The notes: generated by a model from the letters alone, not told the origin. Counted from the stretch's first letter, positions 1,806 to 60,491 are shown. The stretch: 64,000 bases of DNA from an uncultured Bacteroidota bacterium (GCA_900545215.1 UQXW01000001.1:61794-125793), one strand, 5' to 3'. Program-made: numbers and translations.

Positions 1806-2384
1806 TTGTCTTTCGAGCGAAAGTATATGGAAGAAAAGAAGGAAATCGTCGAATTGGTGGAACTCTGTCGCAGAAACGACAGGGTGGCTCAGCGTAAGAT
1901 TTTCGAGAGGTACAAAGGCGTTATGTTCTCGATTTGCAAACGCTACATGCGAAGTTCCGCCGATGCGGAAGATGCCTTGATTTCGGGCTTTACCAATGCG
2001 TTTCTGAAAATGGATTCGTACAACGGCAGCGGGACTTTCGGCAGTTGGCTGAAAGCCATAATTGTAAACAACTGCATAAACCTCTATAAGCAAGAGCTGA
2101 GACGCAATCAGGTGGAACGAGGGGAAGAAAGAGAGGAGTTCGTCGAAGAGCTTGAGATGGAGGACAGGTTTTCGACAGATGAGTTGTATGATGCGATAAA
2201 TTCCTTGGACGAAAGGTACAGAACGGTGTTCAACATGGTTGTCGTAGATGGTTACAAATATGCGGAGGTTGCCGAATGTTTGAATTCAAAGGTCGAAATC
2301 GTTAAGACGATTCTTTATAGAGCGAAGCAGAAATTGAAGATGTATTTAACTGAAACGGAGAAGAGAAAGGAGAGTAAGTCATGA
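1806..2384 (+). CDS. RNA polymerase sigma-70 factor, ECF subfamily
   Basis: Has a region 2-like stretch (RYMRSSADAEDALISGF) and a region 4 helix-turn-helix (YRTVFNMVVVDGYKYAEVAECLNSKVEIVKTILYRAKQKL). Length is 192 aa. Confidence 0.85.
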   Translation: MSFERKYMEEKKEIVELVELCRRNDRVAQRKIFERYKGVMFSICKRYMRSSADAEDALISGFTNAFLKMDSYNGSGTFGSWLKAIIVNNCINLYKQELRRNQVERGEEREEFVEELEMEDRFSTDELYDAINSLDERYRTVFNMVVVDGYKYAEVAECLNSKVEIVKTILYRAKQKLKMYLTETEKRKESKS

Positions 2385-3262
2385 AGTTGGACGAATTGTT
2401 CAGAAGCAGGTTGCATGATGCCGAAGCAGAGGTGCCGAATGGCGTTTGGGATAAGTTGGAAGCGGGATTGAACGAGGCAATGCCGCAATCGGCTGATGCT
2501 GCTCACTCTTCCGGAACATCGCTTGCCTCTTCGGCAAAGTTTTCGGCAGTGGTCGGAAAAACCATTGCGGGCATTGCATTGGCGGCTTTTGCCGGCGGAG
2601 GTGTTTATCTGTTGAACAGGAGCGAAGTAAAGGAGAAAAAGCCGATTGCAAAGCCGGAAACAAGGATTGTGGAAACCGTGCAGAACACGCCGGAAGCCGA
2701 GACGGAAAAAACGATTGAAGTTCCGAAAAAACGAAACGCCGTTTCAATTTCGCCGAACGCCGATTTATTTTTCTCAAACGCCGTTTCTGAAATCGGAAAC
2801 GAAGAGATGGTGAAAGGGGAGGAGAAAGAGGTTGACCATGTTGCCGAAACGGTGCTGTCTCCCGCAGCAACTGCGGTGCAGAGCGAAAGCATATCGCCGG
2901 CAAAGCCCGTGAAACAGCAACGGCATGAGCAGAGCGTGCCGCAAAAAGAGGTTTGTGAAGCGAAACCGCAGGAAAGACAACGGGCGGAGGCGGCTTTCGA
3001 GCCTGCAATCGGCATACCGAACCTTGTGTCTCCGAATAATGACGGCATAAACGACCGTTTCGAGATACGCAACATCGAGAAATATCCCGATAACGAACTT
3101 GTCATTTTCGACAGAAGGGGAAAGGTGGTTTTCCGAGCGGTTTCATACCCCAACGATTGGGCTGCGGAAGGGCTTGCGGACGGTGTATATTTCTATCGTT
3201 TTGCTGTGAGAGAAGGCTCGAAACAGAAAATATTCACGGGAAATATCAACGTGATGAGATAA
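2381..3262 (+). CDS. anti-sigma-like single-pass membrane protein with T9SS type-B (gliding-motility-associated) C-terminal domain
   Basis: Overlaps the sigma gene by 4 nt (ATGA). It has a conserved N-terminal segment (LFRSRLHDAEAEVPNGVWDKL), one TM helix (IAGIALAAFAGGGVYLL), a low-complexity linker, and a C-terminal IPNLVSPNNDGINDRFEI...YFYRF motif typical of T9SS type-B CTDs. Confidence 0.6.
   Translation: MKLDELFRSRLHDAEAEVPNGVWDKLEAGLNEAMPQSADAAHSSGTSLASSAKFSAVVGKTIAGIALAAFAGGGVYLLNRSEVKEKKPIAKPETRIVETVQNTPEAETEKTIEVPKKRNAVSISPNADLFFSNAVSEIGNEEMVKGEEKEVDHVAETVLSPAATAVQSESISPAKPVKQQRHEQSVPQKEVCEAKPQERQRAEAAFEPAIGIPNLVSPNNDGINDRFEIRNIEKYPDNELVIFDRRGKVVFRAVSYPNDWAAEGLADGVYFYRFAVREGSKQKIFTGNINVMR
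2735..2787. repeat. short dispersed repeat (AAACGCCGTTTC-module family), copy 1, lying in frame inside the CDS
   Basis: acgccgtttcaatttcgccgaacgccgatttatttttctcaaacgccgtttc. The 3' half is near-identical to the copies at 33902-33972 and 8762-8833. Confidence 0.45.
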
Positions 3263-8712: not shown

Positions 8713-8761
8713 TTATATCGCCCAAGCCGCCGAAAATCTTTTTCCTATTTTGAAAAGCAAA

Positions 8762-8833
8762 CACCGTTTCATGAAATTGAAATGGCGGAAGAATTTTTTC
8801 TTTCGGCGATTTATTTTTGCGGAACGGCGTTTT
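8762..8833. repeat. short dispersed repeat (AAACGCCGTTTC-module family), copy 2, intergenic
   Basis: caccgtttcatgaaattgaaatggcggaagaattttttctttcggcgatttatttttgcggaacggcgtttt. About 75% identical to the copy at 33902-33972. Confidence 0.5.
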
Positions 8834-8898
8834 GGTCGAGGGGTGTTTTTATCGGTTGGCGGAATATGGTTTTGCGGCTTTTAAAATGGGTGCTTGAA

Positions 8899-8930
8899 TT
8901 TGGCTTGTTCGATAAAAAGTGCTATCTTTG
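8899..8930 (+). promoter_or_regulatory. Bacteroidota sigma-A-type promoter (TTTG-N20-TAtcTTTG)
   Basis: TTTG at 8899-8902 and TATCTTTG at 8923-8930, ~180 nt upstream of the aminotransferase ATG. Confidence 0.45.
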
Positions 8931-9109
8931 CAGCGTTGAAGCGTGTTGCTTCGACTTGCGGGGTGGGTTTATGTGCGTTCCGATGTGTTTGTGCGATTAA
9001 ATGTGGCGGTGGACGGAGGTCGGGCAGGGTTGCATTGATGTATATGTGCGTCGGAAGGGAAGAAAGAAAAGGCAAAACAGTATTTCAGTATTAACAAAAC
9101 AGTAATTTT

Positions 9110-10429
9110 ATGCAGAATATACCATTTGACAAGGCTTTGGTCGATGAAATCGTAGCCAAGAACAAAATCAAGAGCGTGGGAGCAGGCTCTATACGTGAGG
9201 TGAAAAAGGTGATAGATGATGTGGAAGCGGCAACGGGTGAGAAATTTGTGAGAATGGAGATGGGTATTCCCGGATTGCCTGCAGTGCAGATAGGTGTCGA
9301 GGCAGAAATCGAGGCTTTGAAGGGCGGTTGTGCGGCAATCTATCCGGATATTTACGGAACGAAGGAGTTGAAACACGAGACGGCAAGATTCGTGAAGAAC
9401 TTCCTTGATGTCGAAGTGCCGGAGGATTCATGCGTTCCCACTGTCGGAAGCATGCAGGCGAGCTTTGCGGCTTTCATGACGGTGGCTCGTTTGGACGCAA
9501 AGAAGAACAAGATTTTGTTCATCGACCCGGGTTTCCCCGTTCAAAAGCAACAGTGCAATATATTAGGTATAGAGACTTTGCATTTCGACGTTTACGATTA
9601 TCGTGGCGATAAGTTGAGAGCGAAATTGGAGGAATACCTTTCAACGGGAGAGGTGATTGCGATGATTTATTCCTCGCCTAACAATCCGGCTTGGTTCTCT
9701 TTCAACGAGAAAGAGTTGCAAATAATAGCCGAAGAGGCGAACAAGCACGATGTGATAGTGATTGAGGACTTGGCTTACTTCGGAATGGACTTCCGTAAGG
9801 ATTATTCCAAACCGGGAGTGCCTCCTTTCCAACCTACGGTTGCGAAATGGGCAGAGAAATACATATTGATGATTTCCGGCAGCAAGGCTTTCTCATACGC
9901 AGGTCAACGTATTGCAGTGATGATAATAAGCCCTGCTTTGTTCGAGCTTAAAACCGAGTACATGAAGAAGTTCTTCACTCAGGAGAGTTTCGGTCGTGCC
10001 ATAATATTCGGCTCACTCTATGCCTTGACTTCGGGAACGGCATTCTCGCCGCAGTATGCCTTGACAGCCATATTCAAGGCTTGCAACGATGGGACGTACA
10101 ACTTCGCCGAGCCTTTGAAGGATTACGGCAGGAAAGCCCATCAGATGAAAAAGGCATTGGTCGAAAACGGTTTCAAGATTGTTTATGACAAGGATTTGGA
10201 CATGGATGTGGCAGACGGATTTTACTTTACGTTCTCTTATCCGGGCTATAGCGGAGAGGAATTGTTGAGCGAGTTGGCGTATTACGGTATCAGTGCAATC
10301 TCTTTGAAGATTTGCAGAAGCACAAGAACCGAAGGCGTGAGAGCATGCGTGTCTTTGGTGCCTCATGAAATGATTCCTGTATTCGAAGAAAGGGTTAAAC
10401 AATTCCATAAAGACCACCCTGTGAAGTAA
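9110..10429 (+). CDS. PLP-dependent aminotransferase, class I/II fold
   Basis: SGSKAFSYAGQRIAV matches the fold-type-I SxSK...GxR PLP-lysine region. Length is 439 aa. Confidence 0.7.
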   Translation: MQNIPFDKALVDEIVAKNKIKSVGAGSIREVKKVIDDVEAATGEKFVRMEMGIPGLPAVQIGVEAEIEALKGGCAAIYPDIYGTKELKHETARFVKNFLDVEVPEDSCVPTVGSMQASFAAFMTVARLDAKKNKILFIDPGFPVQKQQCNILGIETLHFDVYDYRGDKLRAKLEEYLSTGEVIAMIYSSPNNPAWFSFNEKELQIIAEEANKHDVIVIEDLAYFGMDFRKDYSKPGVPPFQPTVAKWAEKYILMISGSKAFSYAGQRIAVMIISPALFELKTEYMKKFFTQESFGRAIIFGSLYALTSGTAFSPQYALTAIFKACNDGTYNFAEPLKDYGRKAHQMKKALVENGFKIVYDKDLDMDVADGFYFTFSYPGYSGEELLSELAYYGISAISLKICRSTRTEGVRACVSLVPHEMIPVFEERVKQFHKDHPVK

Positions 10430-15159: not shown

Positions 15160-15196
15160 GAACTTGATTTCCTGCGATAAAGGATTGTTTTGCCGA

Positions 15197-15267
15197 AACG
15201 CCGTTTCGGTGAAACGAAGAAAGAGAAGAATGGAACGGGGTTTCATTTTCGCGAAACGCCGTTCCAT
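15197..15267. repeat. short dispersed repeat (AAACGCCGTTTC-module family), copy 3, intergenic alaS-typA
   Basis: gaaacgccgtttcggtgaaacgaagaaagagaagaatggaacggggtttcattttcgcgaaacgccgttcc. Its ends are inverted-repeat-like. Confidence 0.45.
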
Positions 15268-17127: not shown

Positions 17128-17496
17128 AACGGTGCGACATCGTTCTATCGCTGCGAATTTCCATTCGGAGAGGAAAGTCCGGGCAACGCAGAGCATCATA
17201 CTACCTAACGGGTAGGCGGATTTGCAAAAGTCCGACAGAAAGTGCCGCAGAAAACAACCGCCTTTTCCAAGGTAAGGGTGAAAACGCGAGGTAAGAGCTC
17301 ACGCTACGGCTTAGTGATAAGTCGCAGGGGTAAACCTTATGAGTTGAAAGACCAAATATATCGGAGCATGGGGCTGCTCGTCCTTTTCCGAGGGGTAGGT
17401 CGTTAGAGGCTTGTCGCAAGGCAGGCAGTAGATTAATGATAGAACGGTTTGCAAATGCAAACCCGACAGAACCCGGCTTACAGATGTCGCACCGTT
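17128..17496 (+). ncRNA. rnpB: RNase P RNA, bacterial type A
   Basis: The P1 helix pairs cggtgcgacatc (17130-17141) with gatgtcgcaccg (17483-17494). It has the conserved P4 GAGGAAAGTCCGGGC, an AGGGTGAAA...GGTAAGAGC core and the 3' ACAGAACCCGGCTTA. Confidence 0.85.
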
Positions 17497-18146: not shown

Positions 18147-18986
18147 ATGGATAAGAATTACGAACAGTTCAGAGAGCGATTACATGATTACGAACAGCAA
18201 CCCGATGAACGCTTATGGAAAAACCTGTCCAAGGAATTGAACAAGCCGAAACACACCTACCTTACCGTCTCCGTCATCGTGGCAACGGTTTTGCTGGCAG
18301 GCTTCGTCGGCATGTTGGCATTGGCTCCGGAAAAAGCGGAAAAGGAGATTGCAAAGACAGAGACCTATCCTGAACCGACCGTTCAAAGACAGCTTGCAGA
18401 CGAAACGGCAATCGAGCAAAATGATACGCCGAAAAAAATTACCGGAACGATGATTCGCAAAAATGAAACGGCGAAAGAAAATACAGTTATTGCAGAGGTT
18501 GACAATCAGGTTGTTGAAACAATAAATCCTACGACCGTAACCAATCATCACGAGACAGCCGTCATGCCTCGCAATCAAGTCGCCGGAATACCGAAAGTCG
18601 TTTCGACAACTCTTCCCGCACAAAAGTCGGCGGCAAAGCCTGCAAACACCGAAATCATTGAGCCTGAGGCAGGCACGAAGACCTTTTCCGATATTCGTCC
18701 GGAGGACATCGTACGCACGCAACTCTTTATTCCTAATGCTTTCACGCCCGGAGAAAGCACCAACAACATATTCAAACCCGCATACGCCGAACTCTCCGCA
18801 TACAGAATGGACATTTACAACAGTCGCGGCGTACTTATATTCACCGCCAACGACATAAACCATGGTTGGGACGGCACATTCAACGGCGGAGATGCCATGC
18901 AGGGAGGATACTATTACATAGTGAAATTCACAGACACCAAAGGGAACACACATACTCAAAAGGGCAGCCTTATGCTTATACGATAA
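18147..18986 (+). CDS. anti-sigma-like single-pass membrane protein with T9SS type-B C-terminal domain (paralog of 2381-3262)
   Basis: The N-terminal motif (FRERLHDYEQQPDERLWKNL) is shared with the paralog; one TM helix (VSVIVATVLLAGFVGMLAL); a Thr/Pro-rich linker; a C-terminal IPNAFTPGESTNNIF...YYYIVKF domain. Confidence 0.6.
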   Translation: MDKNYEQFRERLHDYEQQPDERLWKNLSKELNKPKHTYLTVSVIVATVLLAGFVGMLALAPEKAEKEIAKTETYPEPTVQRQLADETAIEQNDTPKKITGTMIRKNETAKENTVIAEVDNQVVETINPTTVTNHHETAVMPRNQVAGIPKVVSTTLPAQKSAAKPANTEIIEPEAGTKTFSDIRPEDIVRTQLFIPNAFTPGESTNNIFKPAYAELSAYRMDIYNSRGVLIFTANDINHGWDGTFNGGDAMQGGYYYIVKFTDTKGNTHTQKGSLMLIR

Positions 18987-22424: not shown

Positions 22425-24602
22425 GTGAAGCGAATGGAAACCAATGTACAACTCGATTTGGCTCGCAGGTATGTGGAGCAGACCGACAGGAATATCTTTC
22501 TTACGGGAAAGGCAGGCACGGGTAAAACCACCTTTCTTAAAGGTCTGAAAGCAAGTCTGCATAAGCGTTTTGTCATTCTTGCTCCCACGGGCATAGCTGC
22601 CCTGAATGCCGAAGGGCAGACGATACATTCCTTCTTTCAACTCTCCTTTGCACCATACGTTCCGGGTTGCAGGACGGAGCAGAAACGTTTTCGCAAGGAG
22701 AAAATCAACATCATACGCAGTTTGGATTTGCTTGTGATAGACGAAATCTCCATGGTGAGGGCGGATGTTCTGGATCAGATGGACTTCGTTTTGCGAAAAA
22801 TACGTTACAGGCACAGAAACAAGGCTTTCGGTGGTGTACAGCTGTTGTTGATCGGGGATTTGAGTCAGTTGCCTCCCGTTGCGGTGGAGGAGGAATGGGA
22901 TTTGCTTTCGCAATACTATGCAACGCCTTATTTCTTTTCCTCTCACGCATGGCAGGCTTCCGAGTTTTATACCATAGAACTCCAACACATCTACCGCCAA
23001 TCGGACAAAACCTTCATCGATATATTGAACCGTATCAGGGACAACCGCATTTCGCATGACATCATAGAGAAACTCAACAGCCGATACGTTCCCGATATAT
23101 TGGATAAGAAGAACGAAGGCAGCGTGATACTCTGTACGCACAACCGAAAGACCAAGGCGATAAACGATAAAAGGCTTTCCGAAATAGAGAGCAGGAGTTA
23201 TTTCTACCAATGTGAAGTGGAGGGGGATTTCGACCCGAAAACATATCCAAATTCCGAAATTCTCGAACTCAAAGAAGGCTCGCAGGTCATGTTCATAAAG
23301 AACGATTACCAACACAAGGCAAATGAAAGGGACTATTACAACGGTTCCATAGGTAAGGTGGTGGAATTGGAGGATAAGAAAGTGGTTGTACGCTTGCAGG
23401 AAAACGGTAAGGAGGTAAGCGTCGAGCCTTACACATGGGAGAGATACCGTTACAGCATGGATAAGAGGACGATGGAAATAGTTCAAGAGGTCATCGGCTC
23501 TTTCAAACAGTACCCTTTGAAATTGGCATGGGCGATAACCATACACAAAAGTCAGGGCTTGACTTTCGAGAAAGCCGTGGTGGATGCGGATCGGTCCTTT
23601 ACGCACGGACAGTATTACGTTGCGTTGAGCCGTTGCAAGACTTTGGAAGGCTTGACTCTCGCTTCGCCATTTGTGCCGGAGGCAGTCATAACGGATGAAA
23701 AGGTGAATGATTTCAACCATTCGCAGAAGGATAATCGTGCAGACGAGGACACCTTCGAGCAAGACCGCTTTGAATATTATTTCCACAGTCTCGAAGAAAT
23801 CTTCGACTTTTCCGCCTTGCAGGCAGCCCTCGACGAACTCGACAAATTCAACATCGGACAAGTTGCACGAAAGGAAGCCGAAATCTCATCGGCATTTGCG
23901 AGTGTATCCGAGGCGGTAAAGGAAAACATAAGCGGGGTTTCCGAACGTTTTTCCGTGCAACTGCGTAGGATTTGCAGAGATAGCGAAATGTTGAAGGAGA
24001 GATGCGGTAAGGCAGGTGTTTATTTCTTGGAGCAAATGTCGCTTTGTCTGACTTTGTTGCAGGCATTGGACGGTTTGAATTGGGACGAATACGGCAACAG
24101 CGAGGAAACGGAAGAGCTCATCAAACGTTTCGGAAACGAGGTGGAACTCAAATACAGATTGCTTCGTTACTTTCGAGAAAACGACTTCGACATTGCAGCA
24201 TATACCGAGCTGAAAAACAAGACTATTGCGGAGGGAGACAGAATGCAGTGGACGGCTTACAAAGATTTCATCGGAAAAGGCAAAACCGAATCGGCTATTC
24301 GGGAAAATGAAACGCCGCAAGAAAATAATGAAACGTCGCAAAAATTTGCCGGAACGGCGAAAGAGAAAAACGAGGAGTTGGAGATGGACGATTTGTTCGC
24401 TGCATTGAAGCGATGGAGACGCAGTCGAGCCGAAGAGGAGGGCTTGCCTGCGTATTGCATCTTGTCCCAAAAAGCCATAGAGGGCATAGCGAAATCACGT
24501 CCTCGAACACAGGAGGAATTACTCGCCATAAAAGGCATAGGAAAGAAAACATTGGAGAAGTACGGAGATACTCTTCTCGAATTGATAGCCGAAAAAGGCT
24601 GA
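22425..24602 (+). CDS. PIF1/RecD-like ATP-dependent DNA helicase with C-terminal HRDC domain
   Basis: Walker A FLTGKAGTGKTT and Walker B LLVIDEISMV; a PIF1-like core (WAITIHKSQGLTF, YVALSRC); a C-terminal ~70-aa HRDC-like segment (LFAALKRWRRSRAEEEGLPAYCILSQKAIEGIAK…IKGIGKKTLEKYG). Confidence 0.8.
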   Translation: MKRMETNVQLDLARRYVEQTDRNIFLTGKAGTGKTTFLKGLKASLHKRFVILAPTGIAALNAEGQTIHSFFQLSFAPYVPGCRTEQKRFRKEKINIIRSLDLLVIDEISMVRADVLDQMDFVLRKIRYRHRNKAFGGVQLLLIGDLSQLPPVAVEEEWDLLSQYYATPYFFSSHAWQASEFYTIELQHIYRQSDKTFIDILNRIRDNRISHDIIEKLNSRYVPDILDKKNEGSVILCTHNRKTKAINDKRLSEIESRSYFYQCEVEGDFDPKTYPNSEILELKEGSQVMFIKNDYQHKANERDYYNGSIGKVVELEDKKVVVRLQENGKEVSVEPYTWERYRYSMDKRTMEIVQEVIGSFKQYPLKLAWAITIHKSQGLTFEKAVVDADRSFTHGQYYVALSRCKTLEGLTLASPFVPEAVITDEKVNDFNHSQKDNRADEDTFEQDRFEYYFHSLEEIFDFSALQAALDELDKFNIGQVARKEAEISSAFASVSEAVKENISGVSERFSVQLRRICRDSEMLKERCGKAGVYFLEQMSLCLTLLQALDGLNWDEYGNSEETEELIKRFGNEVELKYRLLRYFRENDFDIAAYTELKNKTIAEGDRMQWTAYKDFIGKGKTESAIRENETPQENNETSQKFAGTAKEKNEELEMDDLFAALKRWRRSRAEEEGLPAYCILSQKAIEGIAKSRPRTQEELLAIKGIGKKTLEKYGDTLLELIAEKG

Positions 24603-32245: not shown

Positions 32246-33472
32246 ATGGAAGAGCAGTTGCAGACCAAGAAACGGGTGATGGTGCTGACGCAACCCTTGT
32301 GGAACAATTACGGTTGCCTTTTGCAGGCGTATGCTTTGCAGAAAGTGATTGAGCGTTCGGGCTTTGAGGTGTGTACAGACCGTCATGAGAGGCATTTCGC
32401 TTCGTTTGCCGAGAATGCAAAGGACGATTTGAAACGCTTTGCGGCTCGTTTTGTTTTGCAAAGAAAGAGCGTGAAGGTATTCCCATATCGTTTCGATGCG
32501 GAGACTTGGCGGAAGGTGTCGGCGAATACGCAGAAGTTCGTCGATGAAAGGCTGTCAACCGTTGATTTTTTCGATGAAAAAGGAAAACCGAAAGAGGACA
32601 CGGGCAGGTGGGATTGCTTTGTGTTTGGTTCCGACCAGATTTGGCGGGATTCTTATGGCAGAGTGGAGACTTATTTCGGCGATTTCTTGGAGGGAAAAGG
32701 GGTGAAGAAGATTGCGTACGCTGCTTCTTTCGGTTTGGAAAGCTGGCAATTCACGCCCGAAAGGACGAAACGTTTGTTCGATTTGGCTCGTTCCTTCTCC
32801 GGAATAGGGGTTCGTGAGGAGGATATGGCGGATTTGATGCACAAGAACTTCTCTTCCGTTGCGGGCAAAGAGGCAGATAAGTTGGAAATCACTCATGTGG
32901 CAGACCCTACTTTGCTTTTGACAGCCGAGGATTACCGTTTGTTGGCAGAGGATTGGAGGAAAGAGTGCGATCAGGCAGCGGAAACGCTTTTTCAAAAGAA
33001 AGGAAAGGGTATTTTGGCTGTGTATGTGCTGGATTGGACGAATGAAAAGAGGCGTATGATGGAAAGGATTTGCGGTTACATGAACCTGCAAGCCGTATTT
33101 CTCAATCCCGAAAGGCGTTTGGGCGTGGAAACAAGGCATTTCGAGGGAGAAAAATCTGTGTTCCGAAGCGTGGAAAGTTGGCTTTCGTTAATGCAAAGTG
33201 CTGATTTCGTCCTGACTGACTCCTATCACGGAACGATATTTTCCCTTCTTTTCGATAGGAAGTTCGCTTTGGTAATGAACAACGGGCGGGGAATTTCCCG
33301 TTTTCGCACGTTGGACGAATTGTTCGACCTGTCTCCTTATACCGTTTCGCAGGAAGAGGATTTGGAAAAGGTATTTTCATTCACAGGAAGAGACGAAGCG
33401 GCTTTTCAAAACTCACTTGCAAGGATACGCAACCGTTCTTTCGACTTTTTGAAACAACATCTCGGCAAATGA
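32246..33472 (+). CDS. polysaccharide pyruvyl transferase family protein
   Basis: The N-terminal NYGCLLQAYALQ motif and the C-terminal DSYHGTIFSL motif are typical of the WcaK/CsaB-type pyruvyl transferase family. Confidence 0.75.
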   Translation: MEEQLQTKKRVMVLTQPLWNNYGCLLQAYALQKVIERSGFEVCTDRHERHFASFAENAKDDLKRFAARFVLQRKSVKVFPYRFDAETWRKVSANTQKFVDERLSTVDFFDEKGKPKEDTGRWDCFVFGSDQIWRDSYGRVETYFGDFLEGKGVKKIAYAASFGLESWQFTPERTKRLFDLARSFSGIGVREEDMADLMHKNFSSVAGKEADKLEITHVADPTLLLTAEDYRLLAEDWRKECDQAAETLFQKKGKGILAVYVLDWTNEKRRMMERICGYMNLQAVFLNPERRLGVETRHFEGEKSVFRSVESWLSLMQSADFVLTDSYHGTIFSLLFDRKFALVMNNGRGISRFRTLDELFDLSPYTVSQEEDLEKVFSFTGRDEAAFQNSLARIRNRSFDFLKQHLGK

Positions 33473-34452
33473 AAAAGAGTATGGATAAGACTGAAACCAT
33501 GGATATATCCGTTGTCATACCGTTGTATAACAAGGAAAGCAGCATTCGGACGGCTGTGGAGTGTGCTTTGAGGCAGACTTGTTCCGTCAGGGAGGTGATA
33601 ATAATCGATGACGGTTCGACGGACGAGAGTGCAAAGGTGGTGAAAGGGCTTATCAAAGAATGCTTTTGGCGTGGCGACGGAAGAATAAGGCTGGTTTCGC
33701 AGGCAAATTCGGGCGTTTCTGCAGCCAGAAACACCGGAATACGGGAGGCAAAGGGAGAATGGATAGCATTCTTGGACGCAGATGATATTTGGAAAAGCAA
33801 TCATATCGAACAAATCACCCGTTTGCATGAGGCTTTTCCGCAGGCTGCGGTTCTCTCTACGAACTATGAAATCGTTACTTCGGCGGAAGTGCAAAATCCG
33901 AACACCGTTTCGGAAAAACGGAACGGCGATTCGATTTTTTCTTTCGACGATTTATTTTCCTCAAACGCCGTTGCGTCGCAAGAGGGTTGCGAGGGCTTCA
34001 TCGTGAATGACTTTTACGGCAGATTGTTGTTCGGAAAGCATGTCGTCTGGTCATCGACCGCCGTGGTGAAAAGGTCGGCTCTCTCGGAGATAGGGGGCTT
34101 CGATACACGCATGACCAAGGGAGAGGATTTGGATTGTTGGGAACGATTGTACGAAAAGGAAATCTTTGCCCAAAGCAATGCCATGACTGCATTCTATATA
34201 TCCGATCCGCTTGATGGAAATGCCACAAGGAAAGCCGGCAATGTGCAGACATACGCCGTATATCTCAATAAGGCGGCTTTCAGATGGCGAAGTGATAAGG
34301 ATTTGTATCGTTTCAAAGTGGTATATGGCTATTTGAAAATGTTCATTTTGCAGCACCAATTCCGCAACTTGGCATTATTGCTCTTGAAACACAACGTTCT
34401 GTTTTTGAAAATCCCGATGTACATATTCAAAAAGCGGAAAAGAGGTTTTTGA
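33469..34452 (+). CDS. family-2 glycosyltransferase
   Basis: ISVVIPLYNKESSI…IIIDDGSTDES…AFLDADD (DxD) GT-A signature. Overlaps the upstream gene by 4 nt. Confidence 0.85.
   Translation: MKKSMDKTETMDISVVIPLYNKESSIRTAVECALRQTCSVREVIIIDDGSTDESAKVVKGLIKECFWRGDGRIRLVSQANSGVSAARNTGIREAKGEWIAFLDADDIWKSNHIEQITRLHEAFPQAAVLSTNYEIVTSAEVQNPNTVSEKRNGDSIFSFDDLFSSNAVASQEGCEGFIVNDFYGRLLFGKHVVWSSTAVVKRSALSEIGGFDTRMTKGEDLDCWERLYEKEIFAQSNAMTAFYISDPLDGNATRKAGNVQTYAVYLNKAAFRWRSDKDLYRFKVVYGYLKMFILQHQFRNLALLLLKHNVLFLKIPMYIFKKRKRGF
33902..33972. repeat. short dispersed repeat (AAACGCCGTTTC-module family), copy 4, lying in frame inside the GT2 CDS
   Basis: acaccgtttcggaaaaacggaacggcgattcgattttttctttcgacgatttattttcctcaaacgccgttgc. 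It encodes …SEKRNGDSIFSFDDLFSSNAVAS…. Confidence 0.5.
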
Positions 34453-43054: not shown

Positions 43055-44134
43055 ATGAAACAATTAGAAATACATGGTTACAAATCGATTAAGGATTTGG
43101 TTCTTCCGCTGAGAGAAATCAATATTCTGATTGGCGCAAACGGAAGCGGTAAGAGCAACTTGCTGTCATTCTTTGTATTTTTGAAAACTTTCTATAATAG
43201 AAATCTTCAAGAGTCTGTGGCTTTATCAGGAGGCATGGATAAGTTTTTGTATATGGGGCGTAAGATTACCTCTGAGATAAGTATAAAATTATTATTCCCG
43301 AATAATGCCTATTCTTTTACACTTGTTGCCGGTGAAGACGCTTTTGTGATAACCAAAGAGGGACTATGGTATGAGGCTAATCCGCACATGCCTAATCCTA
43401 TTGATATAGCATCTTTTTCCAAAGAGTCGGGATTACAATATGCCACGGTACCCCGCGCAGATTATATCCGTAATTATTTAAGTGAACTAAAGAAATATCA
43501 CTTTCATGATACGAGTAAGAACTCACCCTTTACAAAGGTGTCAAATGTAAAAACAGGAGGTCATTATTTGCTTCCGCAAGGAGAAAATTTGGCTGCTTTT
43601 CTATACACTGTTAGTCGGCAGACTCCAAAGAATTACAATTTGATTGTTCAGACTATACAAACCGTTGCCCCTTATTTCAGAGATTTTTATTTGAAACCTG
43701 ATGAGAATGGGAATTTGTCATTAAAATGGCAGGATAAATACAGCGAGAACATTTATGGAGCAACCGATTTATCAGATGGAACAATTCGTTTTATTGCCTT
43801 GACAACCTTATTTATGCAACCCCAATTACCGCAGACCATCATTTTGGATGAGCCGGAATTGGGACTTCACCCTGTAGCCATTGCCAAATTGAGCGGCATG
43901 ATAAAATCGGTTGCAGCCAAGGAGTGTCAAATCATTGTAGCAACGCAATCTACCGATTTGATCAGTTACTTTGATGCAGAGGATATTATTACAGTGGATC
44001 AAATTAATGGCGAAAGTATCTATAAGCGACTTTCTTCTGACGAGTTAGAAGATTGGTTGGAAGAATACACGATAGATGAACTGTGGAAACGGAATATGCT
44101 TCATAATGGGCAGCCGAATAATCAAGAGTTATGA
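43055..44134 (+). CDS. AAA_21/ABC-type (OLD/AbiLi/RloA-like) ATPase
   Basis: Walker A GANGSGKSN; signature-like LSDGTIRFIALTTLF; Walker B IILDEPELGLHP; H-loop ATQS. Confidence 0.8.
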   Translation: MKQLEIHGYKSIKDLVLPLREINILIGANGSGKSNLLSFFVFLKTFYNRNLQESVALSGGMDKFLYMGRKITSEISIKLLFPNNAYSFTLVAGEDAFVITKEGLWYEANPHMPNPIDIASFSKESGLQYATVPRADYIRNYLSELKKYHFHDTSKNSPFTKVSNVKTGGHYLLPQGENLAAFLYTVSRQTPKNYNLIVQTIQTVAPYFRDFYLKPDENGNLSLKWQDKYSENIYGATDLSDGTIRFIALTTLFMQPQLPQTIILDEPELGLHPVAIAKLSGMIKSVAAKECQIIVATQSTDLISYFDAEDIITVDQINGESIYKRLSSDELEDWLEEYTIDELWKRNMLHNGQPNNQEL

Positions 44135-44787
44135 GCAGAGTAATTGTTATTTGCGAAGGCGAAACCGAACGAGAATTTTGCCAAACGCTCCTTTTCGGAT
44201 ATTTTGCGAGCATTGGTAAATATATAGAAGCACCATTGATAAAGCGCTCGCATGGCGGAATCGTTCGTTGGGAAATATTGAAAAAGCAAATTGAAACAAC
44301 TCTACGCAAAGAACAAGATGCAATAGTAACACTGCTTATTGATTATTATGGGTTGCATGAAAAGCACTATTTTCCGGGGTGGGACGAAGCTGAAAAAATT
44401 ATAGATAAAATAAAACGTGTATCCTATCTGGAAGATACTATGAGGCAGGATATAGATGATAGTATTCGTTATCGTTTTATTCCTTACTTGCAGTTACATG
44501 AGTTTGAAGCTCTGCTTTTTTGTGATGCGGAGATATTTAAAAATATGATTCCCGAAAAAGAATTGATAGGTCTTCAGGAATTGCAGACCGTGATTGATAG
44601 TAATCCCAATCCCGAGTTAATTAACACAAGGAAAGAAAACACGCCCTCTCATAGATTGTCGCGTATAATAAAAGGTTATAATAAAATCGTTTACGGAAAT
44701 CTGATAGCTGAACGTATTGGTTTGTCAACCATGCGTTCAAAATGTCTTCGATTTAATAATTGGTTGAATGAATTGGAAAAAGCATAA
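44131..44787 (+). CDS. DUF4276/RloB-like protein (TOPRIM-like N-terminal CEGETE motif), partner of the upstream ATPase
   Basis: The start overlaps the ATPase stop (ATGA). N-terminal RVIVICEGETEREF and a later acidic LLIDYYG motif. Length is 218 aa. Confidence 0.65.
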   Translation: MSRVIVICEGETEREFCQTLLFGYFASIGKYIEAPLIKRSHGGIVRWEILKKQIETTLRKEQDAIVTLLIDYYGLHEKHYFPGWDEAEKIIDKIKRVSYLEDTMRQDIDDSIRYRFIPYLQLHEFEALLFCDAEIFKNMIPEKELIGLQELQTVIDSNPNPELINTRKENTPSHRLSRIIKGYNKIVYGNLIAERIGLSTMRSKCLRFNNWLNELEKA

Positions 44788-44909: not shown

Positions 44910-45030
44910 ATACCGTTCGGTGAAACGCCGTTCTGTTGAAAATAAAACGCCGATTGGCGACAGCGAAATGGCGAAACAGAAAATTAAAACGCCGATTTGG
45001 ATAGAATTTTTTCTCATCGTTGAGTTTGAG
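44910..45030. repeat. composite copy of the AAACGCCGTT-module dispersed repeat (copy 5), intergenic
   Basis: gtgaaacgccgttc…aaaacgccgattgg…aatggcgaaacagaaaatt…aaaacgccgatttgg…gaattttttctcatcg. The modules match copies 2 and 3 but are rearranged. Confidence 0.4.
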
Positions 45031-59987: not shown

Positions 59988-60054
59988 GGCAGTATGGAAA
60001 AAGTGCCACTTTTAGGGGTGAAAAGTGGCACTTTTTAGGGCAATAAGTGGCACT
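59988..60054 (+). repeat. three direct repeats of a palindromic ~16-bp motif (AAAAGTGsCACTTTT) with a 22-23-bp period, upstream of the HU-like genes
   Basis: Cores at 59990-60004 (perfect palindrome AAAAGTGCCACTTTT), 60012-60027 and 60035-60050, each followed by AGGG/GAGG. Confidence 0.7.
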
Positions 60055-60107
60055 TTTTTGAGGCAAAGCCAAGGTTTTACAATCAATACATAAAGACTTT
60101 CAATGAT

Positions 60108-60491
60108 ATGATACAGCTTATTCCTACAAAACGCGTACTAAATTGTAATGGTGTCAATAAAGAGGTGTATCTTTTGAAGCTCAATCCTGTTCACCCGATG
60201 GATTTTGATGTTTTGGCAAAGCTGATTGCCGAAAGGACGACTTTGACCGAGTATGAGGTGGAGTTCGTTTTGAGCGAGTTGCAGACGGTTATGGTTGAGA
60301 ATTTGGAGTTGGGTCGCGGGGTGAAGTTCGGAAAACTCGGCACGTTTGAGCCCTCGCTTAAAGCCGAGGCGGTGGAAAATGAACAGGAACTCAATCTTTC
60401 AACCGTGAAGAAAGTGAACATCATATACAAACCGTCGCTTGAAATAAAAAAGGCTTTGAAGAAGTTGAGAATGAGAATAAACAGGAAGTAG
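60108..60491 (+). CDS. Bacteroidota HU-related DNA-binding protein (HU_rel family)
   Basis: Size and the …LAKLIAERTTLTEYEVEFVLSELQ…LGTFEPS… pattern match the histone-like HU_rel family. First of three tandem paralogs. Confidence 0.7.
   Translation: MIQLIPTKRVLNCNGVNKEVYLLKLNPVHPMDFDVLAKLIAERTTLTEYEVEFVLSELQTVMVENLELGRGVKFGKLGTFEPSLKAEAVENEQELNLSTVKKVNIIYKPSLEIKKALKKLRMRINRK

What the first reader, a model, noticed from the sequence alone, without database searches (positions are those of the whole stretch)
8762..8833. Family of short (~55–110 bp) dispersed repeats built from AAACGCCGTTTC-like imperfect palindromic modules (≥5 copies in 64 kb)
Related copies occur at 2735-2787, 8762-8833, 15197-15267, 33902-33972 and 44910-45030. 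Copies 2 and 4 are ~75% identical over 72 bp (acaccgtttc…ttttttctttcgRcgatttatttty…aacgScgtt). Copies 3 and 5 share the terminal gaaacgccgtt(c/t)c modules but have different or rearranged cores. The termini are inverted-repeat-like (aaacgccgttt versus aaacggcgttt), which suggests a MITE/REP-like element family. This density in one window implies many copies genome-wide.
Basis: seen in the sequence. Interest (0 to 1): 0.6.

Follow-up and report, generated by a model that had tools for sequence, protein, structure and literature searches.

The report
Phased palindromic-box repeat arrays, gut Bacteroidales
The five sites are real copies of a small dispersed DNA repeat, found only in a narrow group of uncultured gut Bacteroidales, in which three or four copies of a 13-base palindromic box sit exactly 21 bases (two DNA turns) apart; it looks like a new family of the REP/MITE kind, and two copies are read as protein inside genes.

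Summary
All five loci are related, and a box-plus-phasing scan finds exactly those five above controls.

Each copy is an array of 3-4 boxes (rAAACGsCGTTTy, a dyad with one central base) spaced 21 nt start to start. Two copies (c1, c4) lie in frame inside genes: an anti-sigma-like CHU_C protein and a GT2 glycosyltransferase.

Related uncultured Bacteroidales MAGs carry many copies, mostly four boxes (74 nt), with near-invariant boxes and variable spacers. Eighty other Bacteroidota loci (1.13 Mb) have none.

Arrays are mostly intergenic, lie close behind stop codons, and keep their position between genera. They change by whole 21-nt units: a 42-nt deletion in one strain, +21 nt in a relative.

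I found no target-site duplication, no GTAG/CGTC tag, no transposase, no insertion polymorphism, no hairpin covariation, no coherent regulon, no Rfam family and no literature match.

Best reading: a new REP/BIME-like repeat family whose boxes are recognition sites for an unidentified dimeric DNA-binding protein. Copies in this window are old and fixed. A host chromatin or regulatory role is not excluded.

The parts
2734..2786 (.). Array c1: three boxes (AAACGCCGTTT / GAACGCCGATT / AAACGCCGTTT) at 2734, 2755 and 2776. It lies in frame inside ORF 2381-3262 (CHU_C protein downstream of an ECF sigma gene) and encodes ...NAVSISPNADLFFSNAVS...
   Evidence: Box positions. TRF reports period 21, 2.6 copies. 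ORF and Pfam CHU_C. Strain L210 lacks exactly 42 nt (2 units); relative L209 has 4 boxes (+21 nt).
8759..8832 (.). Array c2: four units at 8759/8780/8801/8822. The outer boxes are AAACACCGTTT and GAACGGCGTTT; the inner pair AAATGGCGGAA / TTTCGGCGATT forms a central hairpin. It is intergenic, 99 nt after the PAD_porph gene stop and 277 nt before the aminotransferase start.
   Evidence: The whole element folds as one hairpin at -30.5 kcal/mol, z -3.5. It is fixed in 10 strains.
15196..15264 (.). Array c3: box at 15196-15206, then boxes at 15233-15243 and 15254-15264. It lies between the alaS stop (15159) and the typA start (15306). The first gap is 37 nt here but 42 nt (2 x 21) in 9 other strains.
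   Evidence: Two strong hairpins at -39.7 kcal/mol, z -5.6. A degenerate last box sits at the same place in relative L209.
33900..33973 (.). Array c4: four units at 33900/33921/33942/33963, in frame inside GT2 glycosyltransferase ORF 33469-34452, encoding ...NTVSEKRNGDSIFSFDDLFSSNAV...
   Evidence: It coincides with a 21-aa insertion that is absent from 291-aa homologues. Orthologues in L212 and L211 keep four CGsCG-cored boxes at 21 nt while the peptide changes.
44923..44997 (.). Array c5: four boxes at 44923/44945/44966/44987 (AAACGCCGTTC, AAACGCCGATT, AAATGGCGAAA, AAACGCCGATT). It is intergenic, 135 nt after the DUF4276 gene and 168 nt before the low-GC polysaccharide-type locus.
   Evidence: An orthologous 4-box array lies after DUF4276 in L211, with diverged spacers.
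59998..60058 (.). It is intergenic.
   Evidence: TRF period 22, 3.1 copies, score 82. Sequence; motif search. Hybrid boxes AAAGTGGCGTTT occur in related MAG SO_2017_CLC_2.

Best explanation
These are copies of a lineage-specific family of small non-coding repeats of the REP/BIME (REPIN-like) kind.

**Unit and element.** The unit is 21 bp (22 bp in the variant). Its core is a 13-bp dyad-symmetric box, rAAACGsCGTTTy or AAWCGsCGWTT, flanked by A/T-rich half-spacers. The usual element is four units, about 74 bp.

**How it most likely works (inferred).**
- Each box is a double-stranded DNA recognition site for a symmetric (dimeric) protein. A box with a single central base cannot form a hairpin on its own.
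- The 21-bp register puts successive boxes on one face of the helix.
- The unidentified protein, or a recombination process it drives, placed arrays at about one per 10-15 kb in an ancestor of a narrow clade of uncultured gut Bacteroidales.

**What is shown.** Once in place, arrays stay at the same site for long periods. They change by whole-unit gain and loss and by clustered multi-base changes that turn one box variant into another. The source of those clustered changes (gene conversion or template switching) is inferred.

**Tolerated positions.** They sit just behind stop codons, in the middle of divergent intergenic regions, and in protein linkers. In linkers, multiples of 21 nt preserve the reading frame.

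**In this window.** The five arrays (plus one variant array) are old, partly degenerate copies; the three checked across strains (c1-c3) are fixed apart from unit-length changes. c1 and c4 are translated as 7-aa-periodic insertions.
For: **Real and phased.**

**Abundance in relatives.** Of 115 genome hits, about 42 fall in a handful of Bacteroidales MAGs.
- Box spacing there is strictly 21/42/63 nt.
- 27 of 38 arrays have exactly four boxes.
- Information content is high in boxes and low in spacers.

**Restricted to a clade.** 0 arrays in 1.13 Mb from 80 Bacteroidota with TypA 68-83% identical to the window's.

**Location.** About 37 of 46 arrays are intergenic. 21 of 29 lie within about 36 nt (from a 1-nt overlap) of a stop codon, but 40-300 nt before starts.

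**Neighbours.** Flanking genes are unrelated housekeeping genes.

**Insertion into a gene.** A GT2 insertion of 21 aa.

**Unit-length dynamics.**
- 42-nt deletion in strain L210, and +21 nt in L209.
- 7 versus 5 boxes in L016/L022.
- 3 versus 4 boxes in the L211 duplicates.
- 5-nt indel restoring 42-nt spacing at c3.

**Position retained across genera, with boxes kept and spacers diverged.**

**Clustered multi-base changes between box variants.** TGC->CAG and TTT<->AAA.

**Hairpin potential.** Adjacent boxes form hairpins, like REP doublets.

**No known family.** Nothing in Rfam and no literature match to the sequence.
Against: - No cognate protein or transposase was identified.
- No GTAG/CGTC tag and no target-site duplication.
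- No site-level presence/absence polymorphism for c1-c3 among 10 strains, so mobility is inferred only from dispersal and from the GT2 insertion.
- Classic REPs are self-folding imperfect palindromes, whereas these boxes cannot fold alone.
- No compensatory covariation supports any hairpin.
- Boxes conserved with diverged spacers at orthologous sites would also fit purifying selection for a host function.
- Genome-wide copy number in the window's species was not measured.
- The relatives' loci were selected by the motif itself. This biases the density figures and the apparent C-C-G-G order of central bases.
Confidence: 0.5

Rival explanations
1. Host-function arrays. The boxes are phased operator-like sites for a clade-specific oligomeric DNA-binding protein, such as a nucleoid-associated protein or global regulator with four dimers per array. 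They are kept by purifying selection, and their dispersal is secondary.
For: - The box is dyad-symmetric with a free central base, the spacing is exactly two helical turns, and four boxes are preferred.
- Boxes are conserved while spacers and flanks diverge at orthologous sites, between genomes whose flanking genes are 69-76% identical in nucleotides, and at the c4 and c5 orthologues in L211 and L212.
- Arrays are over-represented in divergent promoter regions, 15 of 32 oriented cases.
- In GT2, the boxes persist while the encoded peptide changes.
Against: - Adjacent genes have no functional coherence.
- Many arrays sit 0-36 nt after stop codons or in convergent regions, and some lie inside ORFs.
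- Window copies are partly degenerate.
- Within-species polymorphism is not visibly lower in boxes than elsewhere.
- Clustered multi-base changes suggest conversion rather than selection.
- No candidate protein was found.
Confidence: 0.25
2. RNA-level elements. The arrays are bidirectional intrinsic terminators or 3'-end mRNA-stabilising hairpins, built from pairs of complementary boxes followed by U tracts.
For: - Arrays lie within about 36 nt (from a 1-nt overlap) of stop codons in 21 of 29 cases.
- Box pairs rank at or near the top of the terminator-like hits in L027 and L038.
- A phage uses the same two-box hairpin as a plain terminator.
- c2 and c3 fold well, with z -3.5 and -5.6.
Against: - No compensatory covariation in any pairing scheme: 0-5 of 37-66 deviating positions stay complementary.
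- Spacer complementarity within an array is no better than between arrays.
- 10-nt loops, a strict 21-nt register and four boxes are not needed for termination.
- 15 arrays lie in divergent promoter regions with no 3' end nearby.
- c2 follows a separate canonical terminator, and the window arrays are not flagged as terminators apart from one weak central hit.
- Some copies lie inside ORFs.
Confidence: 0.12
3. Classical cut-and-paste MITE derived from an insertion sequence. The outer boxes are the terminal inverted repeats, bound by that element's transposase.
For: - Size about 74 bp, inverted outer boxes and no coding capacity.
- Sub-families share outer boxes but differ in the centre.
- An insertion into GT2.
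Against: - No target-site duplication.
- No insertion polymorphism.
- No transposase nearby.
- Inner boxes equal outer boxes in the main sub-family.
- Array ends are not sharp: the flanks continue the spacer pattern.
Confidence: 0.08
4. Not a DNA element: chance similarity, codon or low-complexity bias, or a protein-level repeat motif (N-A/G-D-S-F-S-S) in linker regions.
For: - c1 and c4 are coding, in the same frame, and give 7-aa repeats.
- Box-like words also occur in other coding linkers (family D1).
Against: - Three of the five arrays are non-coding.
- Shuffled, reversed and locally shuffled controls never reach the observed scores.
- Relatives carry dozens of non-coding arrays.
- The frame-independent 21-nt register also holds in intergenic DNA.
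Confidence: 0.03

Closest known systems
REP / BIME elements of enterobacteria and REPINs of Pseudomonas (described in PMC2817692 and PMC3733652)
   Same: - Short palindromic repeats, many copies, mostly extragenic, often just behind genes or between cistrons.
- Arranged in regularly spaced clusters.
- Lineage-specific, with occasional intragenic units.
- Dimers can form long hairpins.
- Position is often retained while the sequence is homogenised.
   Different: - The box is a 13-bp perfect dyad with one central base, so it cannot fold alone. REPs are self-folding imperfect stem-loops with 2-20-nt loops.
- Strict 21-bp register and a preferred number of four boxes.
- No GTAG or CGTC tag.
- No RAYT transposase seen.
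- The host is an uncultured Bacteroidales clade.
Rickettsia palindromic elements (RPE) and enterobacterial RU small mobile sequences found inside genes (PMC2759123; RPE as cited in PMC3733652)
   Same: Small palindromic repeats that occur both between genes and in frame inside protein-coding genes, where they add a peptide segment to the protein (c4 in GT2, c1 in the CHU_C protein).
   Different: - RPE and RU elements are 100-170 bp with no internal 21-bp periodic box structure.
- Here the frame is preserved automatically, because the unit is 7 codons.
- No sequence relation was tested or is expected.
BrickBuilt MITE/minisatellite of Porphyromonas gingivalis (PMC4596501)
   Same: - A Bacteroidales intergenic repeat built from about two-helical-turn tandem units (23 nt).
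- Whole-unit expansion and contraction between strains.
- Limited host range.
   Different: - The brick consensus is AGAYCATARTATCCTCTCRTRTG, unrelated to these boxes and not palindromic.
- BrickBuilt has leader and tail segments with terminal inverted repeats resembling ISPg elements, up to 22.8 units, 19 copies, and is always intergenic.
Phased operator arrays of oligomeric regulators (own knowledge: tandem ARG boxes of ArgR at 21 bp centre to centre; four 13-bp sites wrapped on Lrp/FFRP octamers)
   Same: Dyad-symmetric boxes repeated at an integral number of helical turns, and a preferred number of four boxes.
   Different: - Those arrays sit in promoters of a defined regulon.
- These arrays are scattered next to unrelated housekeeping genes, behind stop codons and inside ORFs.
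- The box sequence differs.
Paired DNA uptake sequences acting as terminators in Neisseria and Haemophilus (own knowledge)
   Same: An over-represented short word that, as an inverted pair behind genes, forms terminator-like hairpins.
   Different: - Uptake sequences occur about once per kb as single words, largely inside genes.
- Here single boxes are rare (0.17 per kb), and nearly all are in 21-nt phased arrays.

Membership tests
REP / BIME (REPIN) | The unit is a short imperfect palindrome that folds into a stem-loop on its own | tested here: not met
   The box AAACG-s-CGTTT has a single central base. Only pairs of boxes 21 nt apart form stems of 11-13 bp with 8-10-nt loops. Deviating positions are not compensated.
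REP / BIME (REPIN) | Many dispersed copies, predominantly extragenic | tested here: inconclusive
   5 arrays in 64 kb here. About 37 of 46 arrays are intergenic. No whole-genome count was possible.
REP / BIME (REPIN) | Conserved GTAG or CGTC tag at one end (PMC3733652) | tested here: not met
   Among 39 arrays with 12-nt flanks: GTAG 0, CTAC 2, CGTC 5, GACG 4, with no fixed position.
REP / BIME (REPIN) | Cognate RAYT (Y1/HUH transposase) gene flanked by the repeats | tested here: inconclusive
   No Y1_Tnp or any other transposase among 40 + 10 + 10 proteins next to arrays. Complete genomes could not be searched.
REP / BIME (REPIN) | Clusters with regular spacing | tested here: met
   Spacing 21/42/63 nt in all related genomes, 3-10 units, mode 4.
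MITE | Terminal inverted repeats, small size, no coding capacity | tested here: met
   The outer boxes are mutual inverted repeats, and the element is 53-75 bp.
MITE | Target-site duplication of fixed length | tested here: not met
   The longest flanking direct repeat is 0-2 nt in 30 of 39 arrays, with no common length.
MITE | Presence/absence polymorphism at orthologous sites (recent mobility) | tested here: not met
   c1-c3 are present in all 10 strains. Only the number of units varies. The one insertion seen is old: GT2 against homologues of 46% identity.
Intragenic in-frame palindromic elements (RPE-like behaviour) | The element lies inside an intact ORF, in frame, and adds residues relative to homologues | tested here: met
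   c4 equals a 21-aa insertion in GT2. c1 has 1, 3 or 4 units in strains and relatives with the ORF intact.
Intrinsic terminator | Stable stem directly followed by a U tract at a gene's 3' end | tested here: inconclusive
   Met by some arrays in relatives. Window arrays are not flagged, apart from a weak central hit in c2. 15 arrays lie in divergent regions.
Regulon operator array | Sites lie in promoters of functionally related genes | tested here: not met
   Flanking genes include alaS, pgk, ruvA, ruvC, secDF, thiG, smpB, prs, murB and others. Arrays also lie behind stop codons and inside ORFs.
DNA uptake sequence | A single short word about once per kb, on both strands, and common in coding DNA | tested here: not met
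   11 boxes in 64 kb, 10 of them inside phased arrays.

The most novel reading that the evidence does not exclude
The arrays are the chromosomal binding sites of a so far unknown, clade-specific DNA-binding protein. It assembles as four dimers on four boxes spaced two helical turns apart, with about 74 bp of DNA held or wrapped on one face. This would form a sequence-specific nucleoid-organising or global regulatory system, with sister specificities (AAACG versus AAGTG half-sites). Its sites spread through the genome like a mobile element and are tolerated even inside genes.
Probability: 0.2. Interest if true: 0.75.

Novelty: new variant of a known kind. Interest (0 to 1): 0.5.

Why it matters
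- **A new repeat family in an unstudied group.** Small dispersed repeats of the REP/MITE kind are poorly known outside Proteobacteria and essentially undescribed in uncultured gut Bacteroidales.
- **An unusually regular, testable architecture.** 13-bp dyad boxes, an exact 21-bp register and a preferred four boxes together predict a specific protein partner.
- **Effects on proteins.** Because the unit is seven codons, the arrays supply in-frame peptide insertions and length polymorphism to proteins, seen here in a glycosyltransferase and an anti-sigma-like protein.
- **Practical uses.** The arrays are a marker for a narrow clade, a likely cause of assembly and annotation errors, and possibly a source of terminators or binding sites next to housekeeping genes.

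Tried and rejected
- **Rfam.** The whole window at gathering thresholds gave only RNase P. Four relatives' loci at E<=0.1 gave only sub-threshold miRNA-like hairpin hits.
- **Literature.** A full-text search for the box sequence found only unrelated primers. REP/RAYT/Bacteroidetes and MITE/Bacteroidales searches found no description of this family.
- **Phages.** A viral-contig scan for two phased boxes found one phage, present as two contigs, with a plain terminator. A phage origin was dropped.
- **RNA or ssDNA hairpin selection.** No covariation in any box pairing. No array-specific spacer complementarity.
- **Tags and duplications.** No target-site duplication and no GTAG/CGTC tag.
- **Regulon idea.** Flanking genes are functionally unrelated.
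- **Shared flanking gene.** Two 193-aa flanking ORFs are not homologous to each other.
- **Extra arrays in the window.** The candidates at 18399-18483 and 24285-24327 (family D1) do not pass the phased-matrix threshold.
- **Orthologous typA loci.** A metagenome scan for typA loci, meant to test c3, returned only more distant Bacteroidota without arrays. These served as a negative control.
- **c2 orthologues.** Synteny is broken in L208, and no array is present in L209.

Full report
**Setting.** The window comes from an uncultured gut member of the Bacteroidota.
- It carries type IX secretion tails, CHU_C domains and a Porphyromonas-type PAD enzyme.
- G+C is about 46%, with a low-G+C polysaccharide-type locus from about 40 kb.
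- The same species is common in human gut metagenomes. L010 is 99.99% identical to window 1-20429, and nine other strains are 96-98.7% identical. No source names it.

- AAACGSCGTTT with at most one mismatch occurs 11 times against 1.65 expected, and ten of those hits are in the five reported loci.
- A two-module pattern hits four loci against 0.00 expected. A 25-nt pattern hits c1, c2 and c4 exactly against 0.03 expected.
- c4 is 72% identical to c2 over 79 nt, and shares 24/25-nt blocks with c1 and c2.

Each copy is an array of 11-13-nt dyad-symmetric boxes spaced 21 nt start to start.
- c1: 2734/2755/2776.
- c2: 8759/8780/8801/8822.
- c4: 33900/33921/33942/33963.
- c5: 44923/44945/44966/44987.
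- c3: 15196, then 15233/15254. The odd 37-nt gap in c3 is 42 nt in nine other strains.

c1 lies inside ORF 2381-3262, a CHU_C protein following an ECF sigma gene. c4 lies inside the GT2 ORF 33469-34452. Both are in the same frame. c2, c3 and c5 are intergenic.

**A sixth array.** A variant box, AAAGTGsCACTTT, with a 22-nt period, lies at 59998-60058.

- About 42 of these come from a few uncultured Bacteroidales MAGs: MAG187, W3P37.035, RGIG9295, UMGS879, SO_2017_CLC_2, an Onthomorpha, a Scybalousia and others.
- W3P37.035 alaS is 79% identical in nucleotides to the window.
- In these genomes the spacing is strictly 21/42/63 nt, and 27 of 38 arrays have exactly four boxes, about 74 nt.
- Boxes are near-invariant, while spacers vary among a few types (..CAAAATA, TATTTTG.., TGTCCGACTG).
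- Hits in other phyla are chance matches or unrelated repeats.
- As a control, 80 loci (1.13 Mb) from Bacteroidota with TypA 68-83% identical hold no phased array, and only 0.02 single boxes per kb against 0.17 per kb here. The family therefore belongs to a narrow clade.
- Non-ascertained sequence suggests about one array per 10-16 kb. This rests on extra arrays in the relatives' loci, the window itself, and L208-L212. It implies a few hundred per genome, which is an extrapolation, not a count.

**Context.** These figures use crude ORF calls.
- About 37 of 46 arrays in relatives are intergenic: 15 in divergent regions, 6 in convergent regions and 11 between tandem genes.
- Where an array faces a gene's 3' end, it lies within about 36 nt (from a 1-nt overlap) of the stop codon in 21 of 29 cases. 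Where it faces a 5' end, it lies mostly 40-300 nt upstream.
- Flanking genes are unrelated housekeeping genes such as alaS, pgk, ruvA, ruvC, secDF, thiG and smpB. No transposase was found.

**Evolution: position.** Arrays keep their position.
- UMGS879 and W3P37.035 share an array 41-45 nt upstream of the same gene (a gene 75.6% identical in nucleotides). The boxes are conserved while spacers and flanks are scrambled.
- UMGS879 and RGIG9295, with flanking genes 69% identical, share one between divergent promoters.
- MAG187 and W3P37.035, 91% identical over this region, share both arrays of a 6.5-kb region. Substitutions there concentrate in the spacers.
- c5 has a four-box orthologue behind DUF4276 in L211.
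- c4 has four-box orthologues inside the GT2 genes of L212 and L211, although the encoded peptide differs.

**Evolution: whole units.** Change is by whole units.
- 7 versus 5 boxes in L016/L022.
- 3 versus 4 boxes in the two L211 duplicates.
- A strain with an exact 42-nt deletion in c1, and a relative with +21 nt.
- Several differences are clustered multi-base switches between box variants, such as TGC->CAG and TTT<->AAA. I read these as gene conversion or template switching; this is an inference.

**Evolution: movement and loss.**
- c4 coincides with a 21-aa (63-nt) insertion relative to 291-aa GT2 homologues, so arrays have reached new sites.
- No presence/absence polymorphism was seen for c1-c3 in ten strains.
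- c2 is absent downstream of PAD_porph in L208 and L209.

**Tests of mechanism.**
- A single box cannot fold, because it has a one-base centre.
- Pairs of boxes can fold: c2 folds as one long hairpin (z -3.5) and c3 as two (z -5.6). Box pairs rank among the best terminator-like hits in two relatives, but not in the window.
- Deviating box positions are almost never compensated in any pairing scheme. Spacers of one array are no more complementary to each other than to those of other arrays. Selection for an RNA or single-stranded DNA stem is therefore not supported.
- There is no target-site duplication and no GTAG/CGTC tag.
- There is no Rfam family, no phage association, and no published description that I could find.

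**Interpretation.**
- The dyad boxes with a free central base, the exact two-turn register, the preferred four boxes and the conserved-box/variable-spacer pattern are the signature of recognition by a symmetric DNA-binding protein on double-stranded DNA.
- The dispersal next to unrelated genes, the lineage restriction, the positions behind stop codons and in linkers, the sub-families and the concerted unit-wise evolution are the signature of a REP/BIME-like repeat family.
- I therefore rank first a new REP/BIME-like family whose boxes are protein recognition sites (0.5).
- The rivals are a purely host-functional binding array (0.25), an RNA-level terminator or stabiliser (0.12), a classical MITE (0.08), and chance or a protein motif (0.03).
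- It is not a member of the GTAG/CGTC REP super-families, because the tag and the self-folding unit were both tested and not met. It behaves like them in distribution.

**Comparison with known elements.**
- Closest in behaviour are enterobacterial REP/BIMEs and Pseudomonas REPINs (PMC2817692, PMC3733652).
- Rickettsia RPEs and enterobacterial RU elements match for in-frame intragenic copies (PMC2759123).
- P. gingivalis BrickBuilt is a Bacteroidales repeat made of about two-turn units with unit-number polymorphism, but its 23-nt brick is unrelated in sequence (PMC4596501).

**Verdict.** This is a real feature. I class it as a new variant of a known kind, of moderate interest.

Noticed in passing
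window 59998-60067: Three boxes AAAGTG(C/G)CACTTT at 60000/60022/60044 (22-nt period, TRF score 82), in the intergenic region before ORF 60108-60491. This is a sister box type with the same architecture. Hybrid boxes AAAGTGGCGTTT occur in MAG SO_2017_CLC_2 (L054, L066, L125).
   Followed up: partly
window 15207-15212 versus L001-L009: The window strain and L010 lack 5 nt (GAAAC) in c3 that nine other strains have. The deletion breaks the 42-nt (2 x 21) box register.
   Followed up: yes
L211 17375-17600 and 19420-19645: In a relative, the two-gene cassette AAA-ATPase + DUF4276 (the counterpart of window 43055-44787) is flanked by nearly identical direct repeats of about 200 bp. Each contains an array (3 versus 4 boxes) and a promoter-like TTCTTTTGCAGG. 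The window has only the downstream copy (c5). This may mark cassette insertion or duplication.
   Followed up: partly
window 18399-18483 and 24285-24327; L209 13022/13064; L212 803/845: Degenerate box-like 21/42-nt repeats lie inside the second CHU_C ORF (18147-18986) and in the linker before the HRDC domain of the PIF1-type helicase ORF (22425-24602). Better boxes occur at the same places in relatives. They fall below the phased-matrix threshold in the window. They may be further decayed coding arrays.
   Followed up: partly
window 17132-17496: Bacterial RNase P RNA class A (248 bits), between typA and the second ECF sigma gene.
   Followed up: no
window about 8840-9110: In some assemblies the aminotransferase (439 aa here) is called as a 520-529-aa protein. 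That would mean an N-terminal extension running up to just after c2, which is likely an annotation artefact of the open frame behind the array.
   Followed up: no
L004 12381-13568; L007 11517-12860; L208 3403-6164: Strain- and species-level gene-content differences close to the arrays: an extra 395-aa gene in strain L004, a replaced segment in L007, and a type II restriction-modification pair (N6_Mtase/Eco57I + RE_AccI) in relative L208.
   Followed up: no
L023, L040, L076, L108, L121 (Anaerolineae MAG SJ719); L025, L060 (Saprospiraceae); L116 (Verrucomicrobiaceae): Other phyla have their own repeats containing AACGCCGTTTC. Anaerolineae have dispersed and tandem palindromes GGAACGAACGCCGTTTCGTTCC. 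Saprospiraceae have 29-nt tandem repeats. A Verrucomicrobiaceae MAG has a 21-nt tandem GAAACGCCGTTTCATCATYGT. There is no evidence that they are related to this family.
   Followed up: no
L016 5787-5925, L090 3950-4149, L033 5260-5396: Longer arrays (7, 10 and 7 units) exist in relatives. The L033 array lies in an open frame joining two ABC-ATPase domains, so gene calls across arrays may fuse neighbouring genes.
   Followed up: partly
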